Below, piece after piece: positions 1,652 to 50,288 of a DNA stretch of 54,585 bases. The position numbers were made by a program, and so were the translations under genes. The notes beneath the pieces were generated by a model, which saw only the letters and a program-made list of their open reading frames with translations, was not told the DNA's origin and did not search any database. The DNA comes from Rhodospirillales bacterium (lineage in GTDB: Bacteria > Pseudomonadota > Alphaproteobacteria > Rhodospirillales > UBA2165), in assembly GCA_046582475.1 (NCBI GenBank), contig JAYGEH010000054.1, positions 1-54,585 on the forward strand, read 5' to 3'. Each line of letters starts with the position of its first letter. Within the stretch, counting starts at the first letter, position 1.

Positions 1652-2182
1652 ATGAAAACGATACGCGCAATCATAATTTTTGCTTTCGGCGCCTTTCTGT
1701 TGTCCGCCGCGCCAAACGCCAATGCCGGGCCGGGGCTCAAGCTCTCGGAAAGCGTCAAGGCCGGATTGATGTCCATGCGGCCGGTTCGCGGCCAGCCGGT
1801 CGGGCCTGAATTTTTCGACGGCAAGCCAACCATGGTGATATTCTTCGCCAGTTGGTGAGGCACTTGCCGTTCTGAGTTCGTGCAACTCAGCAACTATCTG
1901 GCGGACGGCGGCGCCGGCGAGCTTAATGTCGTCGCCATCGCCTGGACCGAGGGCCGCTACGGATTTGCCTCGCCGGCGCGCCTGCGCAGCTTCATCAGAG
2001 ATTTCCATCCGTCGATCCGCGTGGTCCATGCCAATCCACGTGTCGAGAAGGATTTTGCGCCGCTGGTCTATGTGCCGGCGAACTTCGCCTTCGACGGCAA
2101 GGGCCGGTTGCGCCTGGGCGACGGCAACCGTATGCATCTCAACCGCAAACAGATTGCCTTTATCGTCGATAAGATAAAATAA
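1652..2182 (+). CDS. TlpA/ResA-like thioredoxin-fold thiol:disulfide oxidoreductase; predicted selenoprotein (UGA 1856-1858 read as Sec)
   Basis: Track ORFs 1637..1858 and 1880..2182 share one frame. The joined protein reads ...GKPTMVIFFASW-U-GTCRSEFVQLSNYL..., so the TGA sits at the first Cys of the WCxxC motif. Signal peptide MKTIRAIIIFAFGAFLLSAAPNANA. A hairpin lies downstream of the TGA. Confidence 0.75.
1872..1890 (+). promoter_or_regulatory. Candidate bacterial SECIS hairpin for the TlpA-like gene
   Basis: CUGAGUU-CGUGC-AACUCAG forms a perfect 7-bp stem with a 5-nt loop containing GU. The stem starts 13 nt after UGA 1856-1858. Confidence 0.55.
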
Positions 2183-5947: not shown

Positions 5948-6640
5948 TTAAGCCATATCGAATATCAGCAGCACCGCCGCCTCGATGGCGGTGATGGTCA
6001 CAGTGTTTATGCCTTCCACCGCCGCGCCGTCGCCGGCGGCGATAATAGCATCGCCCAGGGCTGCCGCCCCGCTGGCCACCTGCACCCAGGCGCGGCGCCC
6101 GGGCGCCAGGCTCAGCGCGGCCTTTTGGCCAGCCTCCAGCTGGCCCGAATAGAGCCGCAAATCGGCGTGGATGGCAACGCCGCCTTCGGGCCGCAGCGGC
6201 GCGCCGATCAAGGTCAGCCCGGCGCCGGCGCCATTGAGAGACATCTGCTCGTAGCCCGGCTCGAGCCCGATCTCGGCGGGCCTGATCCAGATTTGCAGGG
6301 AATGGCTGATCTCGGTCTGCGACGAATTATATTCAGAATGGACAACGCCGGTGCCGGCGCTCATGCGCTGAATTTCGCCTTCGCCGATGCGCCCCTTGCC
6401 GCCGGTGGAATCTTCGTGGCGCATGCCGCCGGCCACCATAAAGGTGACAATCTCCATATCCTGGTGCGGGTGCATGGGAAACCCCTGGCCCGGCTGGATG
6501 ATCGTTTCGGCGATGGAGATCAGCGCGCCATAGCCGTTTGGGCGGGGATCAACGGAATTGTCGGCGGCGAAGCTGCGGATGATTTGCACCCAGCCCCGGT
6601 CGGTAGTGATACGGTCGCCGCTTTTGAATTTCTCGATCAT
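5948..6640 (-). CDS. Pirin family protein (second paralogue)
   Basis: Starts [17 protein letters not shown] and carries [19 protein letters not shown]. Its ATG (6640-6638) overlaps the tgt stop TGA (6639-6637). Confidence 0.9.
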
Positions 6641-7761
6641 GGTTCGATATCGCCCAAAGCTTGGCGGCTGTGAAATTCCTTGGCAAATTCTTCGAGCCCG
6701 CCGGCCTCGATGGCGGCGCGGAGACCCGTCATCAGGTCCTGATAATACTGCAGATTGTGCCAGGTCAAAAGCATCGGCCCGAGAATTTCGTCGGCCTTGA
6801 AAAGATGGTGCAGGTAGGCACGGCTGTGCCCGGTGCAGGCCGGGCAGGTGCAGGCCGCATCGATGGGGCGCGCATCCTCGGCGTGGCGGGCATTGCGGAT
6901 ATTGATCGATCCCCGGGGGGTGAAGCCCTTGCCGGTGCGCCCGGACCGGGTCGGCATGACGCAATCGAACATATCGATGCCGCGCGCCACGGCGCCGACC
7001 AGATCGGCGGGCGTGCCGACGCCCATCAAATAGCGCGGCCGCGCCTCGGGCAAATGGGTTACCAATCCATCCAGGACGCCGAACATCACCTCCTGGCCCT
7101 CGCCGATGGCGAGGCCGCCGACGGCGTAACCATCGAAGCCGATCGCGGTCAGCGCCGCCGCCGATTGCTGGCGAAGATCATCGAACACGCCGCCCTGGAC
7201 AATGCCGAACAAGCCATAGCCGGGGCGCACCCGGAAGGCGGACTTGGAGCGTTCCGCCCAGCGGTGGGTCAGTTCCATGGATTTGGCGATGGCGTCCTTG
7301 TCGCCGCTCATGGCAGGGCATTCGTCCAGCACCATGGTCACGTCGGCGTCCAGCAGGCGCTGAATTTCCACCGAGCTTTCCGGGCTCAGGGTGTGGCTGG
7401 CGCCATCGATATGGGATTGGAAGGTGACGCCGTCCTCGGTCATGGTGCGCAGCTTGGAAAGCGACATCACCTGGAAGCCGCCGGAATCGGTCAGGATCGG
7501 GCCCGGCCAATTCATGAATTCGTGCAGTCCGCCGAGGCGCTCAATGGTTTCGGCGCCGGGGCGCAGCATCAGATGATAGGTGTTGCCGAGCACCATTTCG
7601 GCGCCGGTGGCGGCGACCGCCTCGGAGGTCATGGCCTTCACCGTGCCCGCCGTACCCACGGGCATGAAGGCCGGCGTTTCCAATGTGCCGTGATTGGTGC
7701 TTAATCGGCCCCGGCGGGCGGCGCCGTCCCTGGCCAGAATTTCATAGGCGAAACCGCTCAT
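6637..7761 (-). CDS. tgt: tRNA-guanine(34) transglycosylase
   Basis: MSGFAYEI...[16 protein letters not shown], and the Zn site [17 protein letters not shown]. The longer track ORF up to 8115 is an upstream artefact. Confidence 0.95.
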
Positions 7762-8792
7762 TACCCATTCCGTTCCAGCAAGCAGGCATCGCCGTAGGAG
7801 AAGAATCGGTAGCGCGCTTTTATGGCGTGGGCGTAGGCGGCGCGCATGCGCTCCAGCCCGGCGAAGGCGGCGACCAACATAAAAAGGGTGGAGCGCGGCA
7901 GATGAAAATTGGTGACCATGGCATCGGCAATTTTGAAGCGGTATCCGGGCGTCATAAAGATATCGGTCTCGCCGGTAAAGGGGGCCAGGCGCCCATCCGC
8001 GCCGGCCGCCGTTTCCAGGAGCCGGAGCGCGGTGGAACCGGCGGCGACGATACGCCCGCCGGCCTGCCGCGCCCCGTTGATGGCCGCCGCCGCCGCCTCG
8101 CTGATCTCGCCCCATTCGGTGTGCATGACGTGATCTCGGGTATCGTCCACCTTCACCGGCAGAAACGTCCCGGCGCCCACATGCAGGGTGACGAGCGTAT
8201 TGTTTACGCCGCGCGTGGCCAGCGCATCGATGATCGCCGGCGTGAAATGCAGGCCCGCCGTCGGCGCCGCGACGGCGCCGGGGCGCGCCGCGAACAAGGT
8301 CTGGTAATCGGCGATGTCGGCCGCCGCGCCGGTTTTAGGCCGCTTGATATAGGGCGGCAGGGGCATGATGCCGTGCCGGTCCAACTTGGCCAGCAGCGGC
8401 GCGCGGCCGAGCCCGAATTCCAGCCGCACTTCGCCGCCGTCCCGCTTCTCGGCGACCCGTGCCTTGAAATCCGGCGCGAAGGTTATTGTATCGCCGATGC
8501 GCAACCGTTTGGCGGGCCGGGCGAAGGCCCACCAGCCGCCGCCGGACACCTCTTTATGCAGGGTCACTTCCACATTGGCTTCGCCGCGCCGGCCGGTGAG
8601 GCGCGACGGGATCACGCTTGTATTGTTGCACACCAGCATATCGCCGGCCCGCAGCAGGTCAGGCAAATCGGTGATCTTGTGATCGGTAAAACTGGCATCC
8701 ACGTGCAAAAGCCGCGCCGCGTCCCTCGGGCGCGCCGGATGCTGGGCGATCAAATCCTGGGGCAATTCGAAATCAAATCCATCGACGCGCAT
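7761..8792 (-). CDS. queA: S-adenosylmethionine:tRNA ribosyltransferase-isomerase
   Basis: 343 aa with [23 protein letters not shown] and [10 protein letters not shown]. The stop TAA (7763-7761) overlaps the tgt ATG by 1 nt. Confidence 0.95.
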
Positions 8793-8861: not shown

Positions 8862-9311
8862 ATGCCGGCCATGATCGACGACATCTACAACACCGAAGTC
8901 TTGCGCCTGGCGGCCCATATCTCGCGCATCGATCCGTTGCCAAGCGCGGACGCCGAGGCCGCGCTCAGGAGCCCCCTTTGCGGCTCGACCATCGCCGTGC
9001 AGATCTGCGTGGCGGATGGGCGCATCACCGATTATGCCCAGGAGGTGAAGGCCTGCGCCCTCGGCCAGGCCGCCGCCTCGGTGATGGCGTCCGAAGTGAT
9101 TGGCAAGGATGGGTTGGAAATCGCGGCGGTTCGCAGCCAGATGGAAGCTATGCTGAAAAGCGATAGCGCGCCGCCGGACGGTGACTGGGCGGACCTGGCG
9201 GCACTGGCCCCGGCGGCGGAAGCGAAATCCCGCCACGGCGCCATCCTGCTGCCCTTTGATGCGGTGCTGAAAGCCTTCGCCGAGATCAAGGCGGCGGCCG
9301 CTTCAGGATAA
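8862..9311 (+). CDS. NifU-N/IscU-like iron-sulfur cluster scaffold family protein
   Basis: 149 aa with MIDDIYNTEVLRLAAHI...SPLCGSTI...ACALGQAAASV...RHGAILLPFDA, typical of the short alphaproteobacterial NifU_N-type proteins. Confidence 0.75.
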   Translation: MPAMIDDIYNTEVLRLAAHISRIDPLPSADAEAALRSPLCGSTIAVQICVADGRITDYAQEVKACALGQAAASVMASEVIGKDGLEIAAVRSQMEAMLKSDSAPPDGDWADLAALAPAAEAKSRHGAILLPFDAVLKAFAEIKAAAASG

Positions 9312-9348: not shown

Positions 9349-10398
9349 TCAACTCTCGACCGTCACCCGGGCTTCGCCTTCGCACATTTCGCCGACCACC
9401 GAGGCGTAGCCGTAGCCCTGTTCCTTGAACAGCGCCAGGACTGCATCGACGGCGCCGGCATCGCAGCTCACCACCAGGCCGCCCGAGGTTTGCGGGTCCA
9501 TCAACAGGTTCCTCTGCCACGCTTCGATGCCGTCAAAGGTGGTGACGTGATCGGTAAAGCTGTCCCAATTGCGGTTGGCGGCGCCGGTGTTGTAGCCTTT
9601 CTGCGCATAATCGGCGGCGCCCGCCAGGAGCGGCAGCTTGTCCCAAGACAGCGTGGCGCCAAGGCCGGCGCCCTTGCACATTTCGTAGGTGTGGCCGCAA
9701 AGACCGAAGCCGGTGATGTCGGTGATGGCGTTGACGCCGTCCAATTGGGCCAGATCGGCGCCGACCGAATTCAATTTGACAGCGCTTTCGACCATCACTG
9801 CGTAGCCGTCGGGACCGAGCTCGTCCTTGTTCAGTGCGGCGCCGAAAATGCCGACGCCCAATCCCTTGCCGAGGATCAAAACGTCGCCCGCCTTGCCGTC
9901 GCAGTTGCGCATGATGTGGTCGGGGTGAACCAGGCCGACAACCGCCAGGCCGTAGATCGGCTCCGGACTGTCGATGGTATGGCCGCCGGCCACCGGGATA
10001 TTGGCCTCGCCGCACAAATCAGCGCCGCCGGAGAATATCCGGGCCACCATTTCCGGCGGCATGATGTCGGCCGGGAAGCCGGCGATGGCCAGGGCCAGGA
10101 TCGGCGTGCCGCCGGTGGCGTAGATATCGGACAAGGCGTTGGCCGCCGCGATGCGGCCGAAATCGTAGGGGTCGTCGACGATGGGCATGAAGAAATCGGT
10201 CGACACCACCACCGCTTGGGTATCGTTGATTTTGTAGACAGCCGAATCATCGCCGGTCTCGACGCCCACCAGCAGATTGGGGAAGCGCGCCTGCGGCGGT
10301 AATCCGGATAACATCTTCTCAAGCACCGACGGTGCTATTTTGCAGCCTCAACCGCCCCCGTGAGAGAGCTCGGTCAGCCTAACGACCTGCGTGTCCAT
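9349..10398 (-). CDS. selD: Selenide, water dikinase (selenophosphate synthetase), Sec-containing form (UGA at 10350-10348)
   Basis: The track ORF starts at GTG 10326. Reading upstream in frame gives [30 protein letters not shown]..., which reproduces the SelD glycine-rich loop with TGA where E. coli has Cys17. Downstream motifs are LLVGVETGDDSAVY and VAGGHTID. Confidence 0.85.
10322..10336 (-). promoter_or_regulatory. Candidate SECIS hairpin inside selD
   Basis: On the minus strand, AGCAC(C)-GUC-(G)GUGCU forms a 5-6 bp stem. It begins 11 nt after the UGA and has GU in the apical loop. Confidence 0.5.
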
Positions 10399-10901
10399 GA
10401 TTCCTTACCAAACTTGTTGCAATGGCCGGGCACCTTATAGGGCACCCGGCATCTTGCAGCCAATCAAAAATTCGCGAATTTGTCCAGGTGTGTACTGGCA
10501 CCATCCCCAAGAGACCAAGGGGTAATCGCATTTGGGCTGATCAATGGGCGCCGGCACCCGATCCACCTGCCTTTGCCCCTTGCGCAAATCGTTTCGCAGG
10601 CTAAATAACAAGCAATGCTCTTGAACATTGTGAATAGGAAGTTTTGATCCCACGCCGGGCGGTGCCCGTGATCGTGGCCGGATCTGTTGCGCGCAGCGTA
10701 CTTTTACCCCCACAAAACCCCAACCACCCCCATGGTCGATTTTCCAAAATGTGTCGCATTTGGGAGCGGCATACCAGGGGTGGTATGAATTGTGGGCCGG
10801 GCCCCCCAGGCCGTCTGGACGCCGAAAAGCGGTATGAAACGGCAGGAACCGTTAGCAATGATGGTGAACCGGTATGGCCGAATTTGGCGAAACATGTCGC
10901 A

Positions 10902-11963
10902 CTATACGTGCCCAGCCAGCTTGGGGATCACTTTTTCGCCGAACAGGCGCACCGAACCTATCGCCTCTTCCAGGGGCAGGTCGTTGAAATTGACCTGCAT
11001 CGATGCGATCTCGAAGCCGCCGGTGATCTCCTGATACTCGGCGATCTGATCGACCAGCTTTTCCGGCGGGCCGATGAAGGCGGCGCTTTTTTCGATCTGG
11101 GTCTCGATGGTTTCCTTGGCCAGCATGGCGATGATCTTGTCGTAGCCGGGATAATCGGCGGAACTGGTGCCTTCCATCCACAGCGAGGCGGCATCGACCA
11201 GGGATTTCAAATACCGGTTCAAGGGCTCGCGGGCGATGTCGATGGCCTTGGTCTGGTCCTCGTGGCAGAACAGATGGTGCGCCAGCATCACCCTTCCGGG
11301 GCCTTCGTGGCCGGCCTCGGCGCGCGCCTGGCGGTAGGTCTGGATCAACTCGTTCATCATGCCGCCGGTGAGCGGAATGGCCATCACGTCATGGCCAAGG
11401 CGCCCGGCATTGGCGAATGAATCCGGGGTGATCAGCGCCGCCACCCAAAATGGCGGGCGCGGTTTCTGGGTCGGGCGCGGCAAAGATGTGACGCCGGCAA
11501 AGCTGTTGAACTCGCCATCCATGGTGACGTTCTCGTCTTCCAACAGGCGGCGCACCTGTTCGATACCCTCGGCGAAGCGGGCCTTGGATTCATCGAAGCT
11601 GCGTTTGAAAATTTCAAACTCGACCGGCAGGAAGGCGCGCGCGAAGCCGCACTCCATGCGGCCGTCCGAGATGGCGTCGAGCATGCCGATCTCGCCGGCG
11701 ATTTTAAGCGGATTGTTGAAGATCGGCAGCACCGCGCCGGTGACCAGACGCGCCTTTTTGGAGCGCATTGCGGCGGCCGACAGGAAGACATGCGGGTTCG
11801 GCGAATAGCCGCCATAGGGCTGGAAATAATGCTCCACCGTGCGCACGTGGGAGAACCCATATTCATCGGCCAGATCGACCAGTGCCAAGCAATCGGCCCA
11901 ATATTCCGCCCCCGATTTGAGGTCCGGTCCCACATCGGGGAAAAATTGCATGCCAAATTCCAT
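10902..11963 (-). CDS. LLM-class (luciferase-like) flavin-dependent oxidoreductase
   Basis: 353 aa with ADEYGFSHVRTVEHYF and a TIM-barrel LLM layout. Ends in TAG. Confidence 0.85.
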   Translation of the reverse strand: MEFGMQFFPDVGPDLKSGAEYWADCLALVDLADEYGFSHVRTVEHYFQPYGGYSPNPHVFLSAAAMRSKKARLVTGAVLPIFNNPLKIAGEIGMLDAISDGRMECGFARAFLPVEFEIFKRSFDESKARFAEGIEQVRRLLEDENVTMDGEFNSFAGVTSLPRPTQKPRPPFWVAALITPDSFANAGRLGHDVMAIPLTGGMMNELIQTYRQARAEAGHEGPGRVMLAHHLFCHEDQTKAIDIAREPLNRYLKSLVDAASLWMEGTSSADYPGYDKIIAMLAKETIETQIEKSAAFIGPPEKLVDQIAEYQEITGGFEIASMQVNFNDLPLEEAIGSVRLFGEKVIPKLAGHV

Positions 11964-49812: not shown

Positions 49813-50031
49813 ATGTCTGGGAGACTCACCGCCTCATCGTCCCGGTGGTATTTCTTCTTTTATTTCGTGCGACATGTTCGGCCCACCCCCCTTACGGTTA
49901 TGACGCTTTGTTACGATTCCTTACGGTTTTACCCAATCTCACGTCTCGATATTTATTCCCGCGACATATTTCCGCGAATCCACCATGGGGGTTTGTGGGG
50001 ATTTGTGGGGGTAAAACGGCGTAGCCGATCT

Positions 50032-50123: not shown

Positions 50124-50288
50124 GTAATTGGGCGCAAACCACATGAGGATGGCCCCAGGGGCTCTTTTTGGGGGACACCCCCAACCCCAATGTTGGTCAT
50201 GTGGGCGTCCGGTGCGGCACCTGGCTATGAGATCGTCGGCCACCGGGGATCAATTCGTCCTATTCACGTTATTCAAGAACAGAAAGGC

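What the first reader, a model, noticed from the sequence alone, without database searches (positions are those of the whole stretch)
9349..10398. selD is itself UGA-encoded: the true start is 72 nt upstream of the called ORF, through an in-frame TGA in the GGG-U-GCK loop
The track ORF begins at GTG 10326. The frame continues upstream through TGA (10350-10348) to ATG 10398, giving [30 protein letters not shown]. This is the conserved N-terminal glycine-rich loop of selenophosphate synthetase, with Sec in place of the catalytic Cys. Sec-type SelD is known in some bacteria. A 5-6 bp hairpin (AGCACC GUC GGUGCU) starts 11 nt after the UGA. Because SelD makes the Se donor needed to insert its own Sec, expression would be self-dependent. 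The two candidate SECIS loops in this window (CGUGC and CGUCG) are similar.
Basis: partly seen in the sequence, partly recalled or inferred. Interest (0 to 1): 0.65.

Follow-up and report, generated by a model that had tools for sequence, protein, structure and literature searches.

The report
Selenocysteine-encoding selD gene with SECIS hairpin
The selenophosphate synthetase gene here really does start 72 nt upstream of the called ORF and reads through an in-frame UGA as selenocysteine with the help of a small, strictly conserved RNA hairpin. This type of SelD is already well known and common in marine bacteria, so the finding is correct but ordinary.

Summary
On the minus strand an ORF runs from ATG 10398 to stop 9349, with one in-frame TGA (10350-10348) as codon 17. 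The full product is an end-to-end SelD (NCBIfam NF002098, 479.7 bits), and the TGA aligns with catalytic Cys17 of E. coli SelD. A 6-bp hairpin (AGCACC-GUC-GGUGCU, 10336-10322) begins 11 nt after the UGA and meets every published bacterial SECIS criterion.

The decisive evidence is comparative. In 11 distinct orthologues (63-97% protein identity), third-codon positions are invariant at only 12 of 348 codons. These are the ATG, the TGA, all six hairpin codons and four others. The 17-mer U-AGCACCGUCGGUGCU-U is the only invariant run longer than 5 nt. None of the 77 Cys-type homologues from reference genomes has the hairpin.

TGA is a normal stop in 14 of 39 window genes. Independent metagenomes reproduce the TGA, and metatranscriptome contigs span the ATG, UGA and hairpin. 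A second selenoprotein gene (1652-2182) shows that the lineage decodes Sec.

Sec-type SelD is the second most widespread prokaryotic selenoprotein family, and the autoregulation idea dates from 1996.

The parts
9349..10398 (-). Full-length selD coding sequence: 349 codons plus stop, with Sec at codon 17. It encodes selenophosphate synthetase (selenide, water dikinase).
   Evidence: Searches give the sequence and translation. NCBIfam NF002098 scores 479.7 bits (cut-off 299) over residues 2-347, and TIGR00476 scores 403.6 bits. PDB 3u0o (E. coli SelD) matches at E = 1.4e-90 over residues 4-340.
10396..10398 (-). True start codon, ATG.
   Evidence: An ATG about 16 codons upstream of the TGA is present in all 11 orthologues. 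An SD-like motif was checked and found upstream of the ATG in the four class-1 genes examined for it. Metatranscriptome contigs extend upstream of it.
10401..10406 (-). Shine-Dalgarno-like AAGGAA, 2 nt upstream of the ATG.
   Evidence: Read from the sequence. Comparable purine-rich motifs lie upstream of the ATG in L081, L001 and L002. Its function is inferred.
10348..10350 (-). In-frame UGA, codon 17: the selenocysteine codon.
   Evidence: It aligns with Cys17 of E. coli SelD. TGA sits at this codon in all 11 clade members and in contigs from three independent metagenomes, with no variant listed. TGA is otherwise an ordinary stop here, ending 14 of 39 genes.
10337..10347 (-). 11-nt spacer between the UGA and the hairpin (GGCUGCAAAAU; codons Gly18, Cys19, Lys20 and part of Ile21).
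   Evidence: The length is the same as the spacer in E. coli fdhF. Synonymous sites in the spacer vary among orthologues and in community reads.
10322..10336 (-). SECIS hairpin. The 5' arm AGCACC is 10336-10331, the loop GUC is 10330-10328 and the 3' arm GGUGCU is 10327-10322. It can also be read as a 5-bp stem with loop C-GUC-G. The invariant 17-mer is 10337-10321.
   Evidence: Folds at -7.7 kcal/mol. Identical in 11 orthologues of 63-97% protein identity, and the only invariant run longer than 5 nt in the gene. None of the 77 Cys-type reference-genome loci has 6/6 pairs in this register. No variant is listed here in community reads, whereas flanking third positions vary. Meets the bSECIS criteria in PMC13188914.
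10324..10326 (-). GTG, the start of the mechanically called ORF. This is an artefact and not a real start codon.
   Evidence: It lies inside the 3' arm of the hairpin and no SD-like motif lies upstream of it. A product starting here would lack the catalytic Gly-rich loop with Sec17 and Lys20.

Best explanation
This is a selenocysteine-type selD gene. Translation starts at ATG 10398.

[quoted passage not shown] SelB recognises the G-U at the start of the apical loop. It delivers Sec in competition with release factor 2. The result is a 349-residue selenophosphate synthetase with Sec in place of the catalytic Cys of the N-terminal Gly-rich loop (HGGG-U-GCK).

Without Sec-tRNA(Sec), translation ends after 16 residues. 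SelD output is therefore coupled to selenium supply and to its own product, selenophosphate.

What is shown:
- the gene structure;
- SelD identity;
- UGA at the Cys17 position;
- a hairpin under nucleotide-level purifying selection that is specific to the UGA-type genes;
- UGA serving as a normal stop elsewhere in the window;
- transcripts that span the region;
- a second selenoprotein gene in the same window.

What is inferred:
- SelB binding;
- actual Sec insertion;
- the feedback loop.
For: - SelD identity along the full length, including the 16 codons upstream of the TGA.
- TGA opposite Cys17, with Lys20 and the ATP-site motifs (DDSAVY, TDFFMPIVDD, NALSDIYATGG, TDITGFGL) conserved.
- All 120 nearest database cluster representatives (64-99% identity) are 320-327 aa, which is the truncated length. 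All 10 related loci for which DNA was fetched (7 of them through those representatives) have the TGA and the identical hairpin. With the window they give 11 distinct genes.
- Third positions are invariant at 12 of 348 codons: codons 1, 17, 21-26 and four others. The 17-mer is the only invariant run longer than 5 nt.
- Cys-type genes encoding the same K-I-A-P-S-V-L peptide (L007, L012, L024) have only 3-4 of 6 pairs.
- The hairpin uses rare codons, with joint probability 2.7e-5.
- TGA ends 14 of 39 genes in the window.
- The hairpin meets the bSECIS criteria. It has a 3-nt loop (or C-GUC-G, matching the pattern N1-G-U-N-N2), a 6-bp stem, 17 nt from UGA to loop, and -7.7 kcal/mol.
- The 11-nt spacer and 6-bp stem match E. 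coli fdhF.
- Independent metagenome contigs reproduce the TGA.
- RNA contigs span 10201-10644.
- A second gene with a conserved TGA, a hairpin and one compensatory pair shows the Sec trait in this lineage.
Against: - No selA, selB or selC lies in the 54.6-kb window or within 10 kb of selD in any related locus. The decoding machinery is therefore inferred, not seen.
- The hairpin is invariant, so there is no compensatory change in it.
- Its folding energy is not better than shuffled sequence and only just passes the -7.5 kcal/mol criterion.
- It lacks the bulged U of the E. coli element.
- No Rfam family matches.
- There are no protein-level data.
- The metatranscriptome contigs are shallow (depth 2-5), carry no strand information and could include DNA.
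Confidence: 0.93

Rival explanations
1. The TGA is a nonsense mutation or a sequencing or assembly error. The gene would then be a pseudogene, or would be expressed only as an N-terminally truncated protein from GTG 10326 or ATG 10314.
For: Gene callers annotate exactly such truncated products of 320-327 aa. The mechanical ORF list starts at GTG 10326.
Against: TGA sits at the same codon in 11 distinct orthologues, and the upstream 16 codons are conserved as SelD N-terminus. Contigs from three independent metagenomes reproduce it. GTG 10326 lies inside the hairpin with no SD-like motif upstream. A truncated product would lack Sec/Cys17 and Lys20 of the catalytic loop (the essentiality of these residues in E. 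coli SelD is established knowledge). The rest of the gene is under clear purifying selection.
Confidence: 0.01
2. UGA is read through as a standard amino acid (Trp, Cys or Gly). This would occur either through a genome-wide code change or through leaky near-cognate suppression, without Sec.
For: No Sec machinery is visible in the window. Some bacteria do reassign UGA.
Against: TGA terminates 14 of 39 genes in the window, so there is no reassignment. The UGA sits exactly at the catalytic Cys position, which is the classic Sec/Cys pair. A UGA-specific hairpin under nucleotide-level selection has no role in simple leaky readthrough. A second gene has UGA in the first position of a CxxC redox motif with its own hairpin.
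Confidence: 0.02
3. The invariant 17-mer is conserved for a reason other than Sec insertion. Examples are a translational pause or attenuator, an RNase site or a protein-binding site. Recoding of the UGA would then use a different signal.
For: SelB binding was not tested. The stem is short and lacks the bulged U of the E. coli paradigm. The element is invariant, so structure cannot be separated from sequence by covariation.
Against: The hairpin's position (11-nt spacer), size and G-U loop match the minimal E. coli fdhF element and the published bSECIS model. It occurs only in the UGA-type genes. Other Sec-type selD lineages carry different hairpins at the same place, also with G-U at the start of the loop. 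No longer conserved structure exists around it: the lower-stem pairings in L001 and L081 are not conserved in the window.
Confidence: 0.03

Closest known systems
Sec-containing bacterial SelD selenoproteins. The original case is Haemophilus influenzae SelD (Guimaraes et al. 1996, PNAS 93:15086, cited in PMC8659212). The family is surveyed in PMC1794560, PMC2398784 and PMC13188914.
   Same: It is a single-domain SelD with UGA at the catalytic Cys position of the N-terminal Gly-rich loop, and a SECIS hairpin lies in the coding sequence immediately downstream. It comes from the marine environment, where Sec-SelD is one of the two most widespread selenoprotein families (357 Sec against 558 Cys sequences in GOS).
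   Different: Nothing differs in kind. This clade has its own SECIS sequence, invariant across proteins of 63-97% identity. It is uniformly mis-called as a truncated 320-327 aa protein in the databases searched. I did not examine the H. influenzae sequence here.
E. coli SelD, Cys-type (PDB 3u0o)
   Same: It aligns over residues 4-340 at E = 1.4e-90. The Gly-rich loop, Lys20 and the ATP/metal-binding motifs are the same.
   Different: E. coli has Cys17 (TGC/TGT) where this gene has UGA (Sec). E. coli selD therefore needs no SECIS and is not a selenoprotein.
E. coli fdhF SECIS, the experimentally characterised bacterial SECIS
   Same: The hairpin begins 11 nt after the UGA, has 6 base pairs, and has G-U in the apical loop (GGUC in fdhF, GUC here).
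   Different: This hairpin has no bulged U, a 3-nt loop instead of 4 nt, and 15 nt in total instead of 17. The G-U therefore lies 2 nt closer to the UGA. There is no conserved lower stem.
Eukaryotic SEPHS2 (SPS2), the selenoprotein form of selenophosphate synthetase
   Same: Sec occupies the same catalytic position. The logic is also the same: the enzyme that makes the Se donor itself needs Sec insertion, which is the source of the autoregulation hypothesis.
   Different: The eukaryotic SECIS is a kink-turn element in the 3' UTR and is read by SBP2 and eEFSec. It is not a coding-region hairpin read by SelB.

Membership tests
SelD / selenophosphate synthetase (NCBIfam NF002098, TIGR00476) | Full-length match above the curated cut-off | tested here: met
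   NF002098 scores 479.7 bits (cut-off 299) over residues 2-347 of 349. TIGR00476 scores 403.6 bits (cut-off 125).
SelD / selenophosphate synthetase (NCBIfam NF002098, TIGR00476) | N-terminal Gly-rich loop with catalytic Cys/Sec and Lys (E. coli Cys17, Lys20) | tested here: met
   SHGGG-U-GCK aligns with E. coli SHGAG-C-GCK in 3u0o.
SelD / selenophosphate synthetase (NCBIfam NF002098, TIGR00476) | PurM-like two-domain architecture (AIRS and AIRS_C) | tested here: met
   PF00586 and PF02769 are precomputed for all 120 close relatives. Weaker ThiL, PurM and PurL superfamily hits appear.
SelD / selenophosphate synthetase (NCBIfam NF002098, TIGR00476) | ATP-dependent synthesis of selenophosphate from selenide | not testable with these tools
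   This needs an enzyme assay.
Sec-containing SelD (selenoprotein) | In-frame UGA aligned with the catalytic Cys of Cys-type homologues (a Sec/Cys pair) | tested here: met
   TGA 10350-10348 lies opposite TGC/TGT in 77 Cys-type reference-genome loci and opposite E. coli Cys17.
Sec-containing SelD (selenoprotein) | The UGA is conserved in orthologues from other organisms | tested here: met
   11 of 11 distinct clade members have it. All 120 nearest cluster representatives have the truncated length.
Sec-containing SelD (selenoprotein) | The genome carries the Sec-decoding machinery (selA, selB, selC) | not testable with these tools
   None lies in the window or within 10 kb of selD in relatives, and the rest of the genome is not available. 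Indirect support comes from a second TGA-containing gene with its own covarying hairpin in the same window.
Sec-containing SelD (selenoprotein) | Selenium is actually incorporated at the UGA position | not testable with these tools
   This needs 75Se labelling or mass spectrometry.
Bacterial SECIS (bSECIS consensus model; PMC13188914, Fig. 2 legend) | Apical loop of 3-9 nt on an upper stem of 4-16 bp | tested here: met
   Loop GUC (3 nt) on 6 bp, or loop CGUCG (5 nt) on 5 bp.
Bacterial SECIS (bSECIS consensus model; PMC13188914, Fig. 2 legend) | G in the first two loop positions, usually followed by G or U (pattern N1-G-[G|U]-N-N2, with N1 and N2 pairing) | tested here: met
   C-G-U-C-G fits the pattern exactly, with N1 = C pairing with N2 = G (criteria).
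Bacterial SECIS (bSECIS consensus model; PMC13188914, Fig. 2 legend) | [quoted passage not shown] | tested here: met
   11-nt spacer plus 6-nt arm gives 17 nt.
Bacterial SECIS (bSECIS consensus model; PMC13188914, Fig. 2 legend) | Minimum free energy of -7.5 kcal/mol or lower | tested here: met
   -7.7 kcal/mol for the 21-nt hairpin segment, a marginal pass. The first 60 nt from the UGA fold at -12.3 kcal/mol.
Bacterial SECIS (bSECIS consensus model; PMC13188914, Fig. 2 legend) | Specific binding by SelB, and a requirement for the hairpin in UGA recoding | not testable with these tools
   This needs gel-shift and reporter assays.
Rfam SECIS families | Match to a curated covariance model | tested here: inconclusive
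   No hit at gathering score over the whole window or at E <= 10 over 10250-10950. Published bSECIS elements are too diverse for one model (PMC13188914), so a miss says little.

The most novel reading that the evidence does not exclude
In this marine alphaproteobacterial clade the Sec-type SelD may be the only selenophosphate synthetase. Sec decoding would then be an obligate, self-sustaining positive-feedback state. It would be inherited through pre-existing SelD protein, would be bistable with respect to selenium supply, and would be recoverable after loss only by rare Cys or near-cognate insertion at the UGA. The unusual absolute invariance of the 17-nt SECIS across proteins of 63-97% identity would reflect that extra constraint.
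Probability: 0.2. Interest if true: 0.45.

Novelty: new member of a known kind. Interest (0 to 1): 0.2.

Why it matters
The main value is for annotation. The true selD product is 349 aa with Sec17. All 120 closest database entries are truncated calls that lack the catalytic loop, so automated pipelines under-report this selenoprotein and would misjudge the enzyme as inactive.

The clade-wide invariant 17-nt hairpin is a clean, minimal natural SECIS: 6 bp, a GUC loop and no bulge. It could serve as a search pattern and as a compact test case for SelB recognition.

The biology itself is established. Sec-type SelD, a coding-region SECIS and possible autoregulation have been known since the 1990s.

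Tried and rejected
- **Folding-energy significance.** The 61-nt and 131-nt folds are no better than shuffles. The hairpin is too small for this test, so I relied on comparative data.
- **Rfam.** No hit at gathering score or at E <= 10.
- **Generic screen for TGA-split frames.** Too noisy at 60% GC. I replaced it with a UGA-plus-hairpin screen, which returned four candidates: selD, the Trx-like gene and two others that I did not pursue.
- **Covariation in the selD hairpin.** This was impossible because the element is invariant in all 11 genes. I did not build a covariance model for that reason.
- **A longer SECIS with a lower stem.** Pairings involving the UGA appear in L001 and L081 but are not conserved in the window or in L002. 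Rejected.
- **tRNA(Sec) or another RNA gene in the 500-nt region upstream of selD.** ARAGORN and Rfam find nothing. The high-depth signal there comes from a dispersed repeat.
- **The NifU-like neighbour as a dedicated Se-delivery partner.** By tblastn it was found in only 1 of the first 160 selD loci. It otherwise appears only in syntenic close relatives, so I treat it as synteny.
- **Sec machinery near selD in relatives.** None within 10 kb.
- **The 1996 PNAS paper.** PMC26360 is not held, so I cite it only through the reference list of PMC8659212.
- **Promoter and terminator scan.** Uninformative.

Full report
**1. The observation**

The minus strand between 10398 and 9349 is one reading frame interrupted only by TGA at 10350-10348.

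Upstream of the TGA the frame reads [16 protein letters not shown] from ATG 10398-10396. AAGGAA (10406-10401) precedes that ATG. Downstream it reads [13 protein letters not shown].

Eleven nucleotides after the UGA lies AGCACC-GUC-GGUGCU (10336-10322). This is a 6-bp stem with a 3-nt loop and folds at -7.7 kcal/mol. GTG 10326 sits inside the 3' arm. Every coordinate in the finding is correct.

**2. Identity of the protein**

With the TGA read as Cys for searching, the 349-residue product matches the NCBIfam SelD equivalog NF002098 end to end. The score is 479.7 bits against a cut-off of 299, covering residues 2-347 and model positions 2-346 of 347. TIGR00476 scores 403.6 bits.

Against solved structures the best match is E. 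coli SelD, 3u0o (E = 1.4e-90, residues 4-340). There [16 protein letters not shown] aligns with SHGAG-C-GCKISPKVLE. The TGA therefore sits exactly at Cys17 and the next-but-two residue is Lys20. The other conserved motifs of the ATP site are present in the same alignment.

**3. Is the UGA a recoding site, or an error, pseudogene or code change?**

TGA is an ordinary stop here. It ends 14 of 39 genes in the window.

Contigs from three independent seawater or vent metagenomes reproduce 10150-10634 with 0-2 differences and no variant at the TGA.

In reference genomes, the nearest relatives among 80 selD loci (L001 and L002, 63-64% identity, Rhodospirillales-type MAGs) also have TGA at this codon. 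The more distant ones are mostly TGC or TGT. That retrieval was biased toward Cys by a search pattern containing the Cys codon.

An unbiased metagenome search gave L081 (70% identity), again with TGA.

A protein-database search with the called ORF returned 120 cluster representatives at 64-99% identity. All are 320-327 aa long, which is the truncated length. I fetched DNA for seven of them. Every one has an ATG about 16 codons upstream, the conserved N-terminus, TGA at codon 17, and the same hairpin.

**4. The hairpin is under selection as RNA**

This is the decisive result.

- In 11 distinct genes (pairwise protein identity 62.6-96.6%, median 69%), the third codon position is invariant at only 12 of 348 codons. 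These are codon 1, codon 17 (TGA), codons 21-26 (the hairpin) and four scattered others.
- The only run of invariant nucleotides longer than 5 is the 17-mer TAGCACCGTCGGTGCTT at nt 62-78.
- Even where residue 21 changes from Ile to Val, its third base A is kept, and that base is the first base of the stem.
- The stem uses codons that are rare in this genome: AUA is 7% of Ile, GCA 5% of Ala and CUU 9% of Leu. The joint probability of the six codons is 2.7e-5.

The peptide A-P-x-V-L forces three of the six pairs, so I scored the same register in Cys-type genes.

- None of the 77 reference-genome Cys-type loci reaches 6/6 pairs.
- None of the Cys-type selD in the metagenome set reaches 6/6 either.
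- Three Cys-type genes that encode the identical K-I-A-P-S-V-L (L007, L012, L024) have only 3-4 pairs.

In community data, divergent relatives align only to 10318-10374. Their differences fall on third positions on both sides of the UGA and in the spacer, at 10339, 10342, 10345, 10351, 10354 and onward. No difference is listed in 10322-10336 or at the TGA.

Folding energy alone is not significant (z = 0.27), and there is no covariation because nothing varies.

**5. Comparison with known SECIS elements**

The published bacterial SECIS model has four requirements (PMC13188914). The element meets all of them, the last only just.

| Requirement | This hairpin |
|---|---|
| Loop 3-9 nt, stem 4-16 bp | 3-nt loop (or 5-nt), 6-bp stem (or 5-bp) |
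| G in the first two loop positions (pattern N1-G-[G/U]-N-N2, N1:N2 paired) | C-G-U-C-G fits exactly |
| 16-37 nt from UGA to loop | 17 nt |
| MFE of -7.5 kcal/mol or lower | -7.7 kcal/mol |

Taken directly from the MG1655 genome, fdhF has UGA, an 11-nt spacer and the 17-nt hairpin GGUUGCAGGUCUGCACC. That hairpin has 6 bp, a bulged U and loop GGUC. The selD element has the same spacer and the same number of pairs, but no bulge and a loop one base shorter.

Other Sec-type selD lineages carry different hairpins at the same place.

- L050, L091, L098, L103 and L130 have CGCCAGC-GUU-GCUG-A-GCG.
- L126 has a hairpin with loop CGUGUU.

Both again have G-U at the start of the loop.

**6. Does the organism decode Sec?**

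No selA, selB or selC lies in the window. There is no tRNA at all, no Rfam hit, and Pfam on about 45 ORFs finds none. None lies within 10 kb of selD in relatives either.

The window does hold a second selenoprotein gene at 1652-2182 (+).

- It encodes a signal peptide followed by a thioredoxin-fold domain, with TGA (1856-1858) in FFASW-U-G-T-C.
- A 7-bp hairpin with loop CGUGC lies 13 nt downstream, at 1872-1890.
- All 24 database homologues are fragments. 23 are ORFs of about 100 aa covering only the part after the TGA, and one 163-aa sequence covers 42% of the query.
- In three divergent members (50-58% identity) the gene is likewise split at a TGA in the same motif.
- The hairpin is kept through a compensatory change: U·A in the window and G·C in the others.

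This is independent evidence for Sec decoding in the lineage.

**7. Expression**

Contigs at 99% identity or better from four marine metatranscriptomes cross the hairpin, the UGA and the ATG. They continue at least to 10644. Examples are X30 at 10201-10496 plus 10494-10644, and X26 at 10241-10542.

So RNA is not confined to the region downstream of 10326. The caveats are shallow depth, no strand information and possible DNA carry-over. These data say nothing about where translation initiates.

**8. Mechanism and what is inferred**

The best explanation is standard bacterial Sec insertion. SelB·GTP·Sec-tRNA(Sec) is tethered by the hairpin and decodes UGA17 in competition with RF2. Failure to do so yields a 16-residue peptide.

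Because SelA needs selenophosphate, which is made by SelD, synthesis of this SelD depends on prior SelD activity. This is logically sound. However, it depends on there being no second selD in the genome, which I could not check. Cys-type Ndh-SelD fusions are common in marine bacteria (PMC2398784).

The idea is also not new. It is in the title of Guimaraes et al. 1996 (cited in PMC8659212). [quoted passage not shown]

**9. Novelty**

- Sec-containing SelD is, with FdhA, the most widespread bacterial selenoprotein (PMC1794560).
- It was the second most abundant selenoprotein family in the Global Ocean Sampling data, with 357 Sec against 558 Cys sequences (PMC2398784).
- The present sequence comes from a widespread marine bacterium. 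It is near-identical in about 20 seawater and vent metagenomes.
- The source is probably a Rhodospirillales-like alphaproteobacterium. I judge this from the nearest MAGs, from the synteny shared with L002 and L170, and from the gene content.

This is therefore a new member of a known kind. Its practical value is for annotation, because the whole clade is mis-called as truncated.

**10. Verdict**

Confidence that this is a Sec-type selD with a functional SECIS is 0.93. Novelty is low, and I score interest at 0.2.

Noticed in passing
window 1652-2182 (+); TGA 1856-1858; hairpin 1872-1890: This is a second selenoprotein gene. It encodes a 176-aa secreted thioredoxin-fold protein with the motif FFASW-U-G-T-C, and a 7-bp hairpin (loop CGUGC) lies 13 nt after the UGA. 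All 24 database homologues are fragments: 23 ORFs of about 100 aa called 'hypothetical protein', and one 163-aa sequence. No Cys-containing full-length homologue was found. Three divergent members keep the TGA and keep the hairpin through a U·A to G·C compensatory change. Pfam matches are only weak (Redoxin 25.7 bits, just under the cut-off). It may correspond to one of the UxxC Trx-like or Prx-like families described from marine metagenomes, but I did not establish this.
   Followed up: partly
window about 10601-10692 and 10703-10788; weaker copies at 49961-50016 and 50246-50281: Two adjacent elements of about 80-90 nt lie upstream of selD. They have 20-40 times the depth of their flanks in metagenome contigs, and the assemblies break there. 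This indicates a dispersed multi-copy intergenic repeat. No tRNA or Rfam match was found.
   Followed up: partly
database proteins P0001-P0120 (relatives of window 9349-10398): All 120 nearest SelD cluster representatives (64-99% identity) are annotated as 320-327 aa proteins that start after the UGA. The whole Sec-type clade therefore appears to be mis-called and lacks its catalytic loop in public protein sets. DNA was checked for seven of them.
   Followed up: yes
L002 6001-7047: This Sec-type SelD has U-G-A-K instead of U-G-C-K, so the second Cys of the loop (E. coli Cys19) is replaced by Ala. The SECIS is unchanged.
   Followed up: no
L050, L091, L098, L103, L130 and L126 (selD loci): Other Sec-type selD lineages use different SECIS hairpins at the same position. 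One group has CGCCAGC-GUU-GCUG(A)GCG with a bulged A. L126 has a hairpin with loop CGUGUU. This suggests several SECIS classes within one protein family.
   Followed up: partly
window 8862-9311 (+), convergent with selD: A small NifU_N-like protein (26.5 bits) lies tail-to-tail with selD. The arrangement transglutaminase-like, selD, NifU-like, queA, tgt is shared with L002 and L170, and partly with L163. It was not found next to selD in the other loci, so it is probably synteny rather than a functional link.
   Followed up: partly
window 6637-8115 (-): The mechanical tgt ORF is 492 aa and overlaps queA (7761-8792). The Pfam TGT match begins at residue 131, and the L002 orthologue is 375 aa. 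The real start is probably about 120 codons downstream of the listed one.
   Followed up: no
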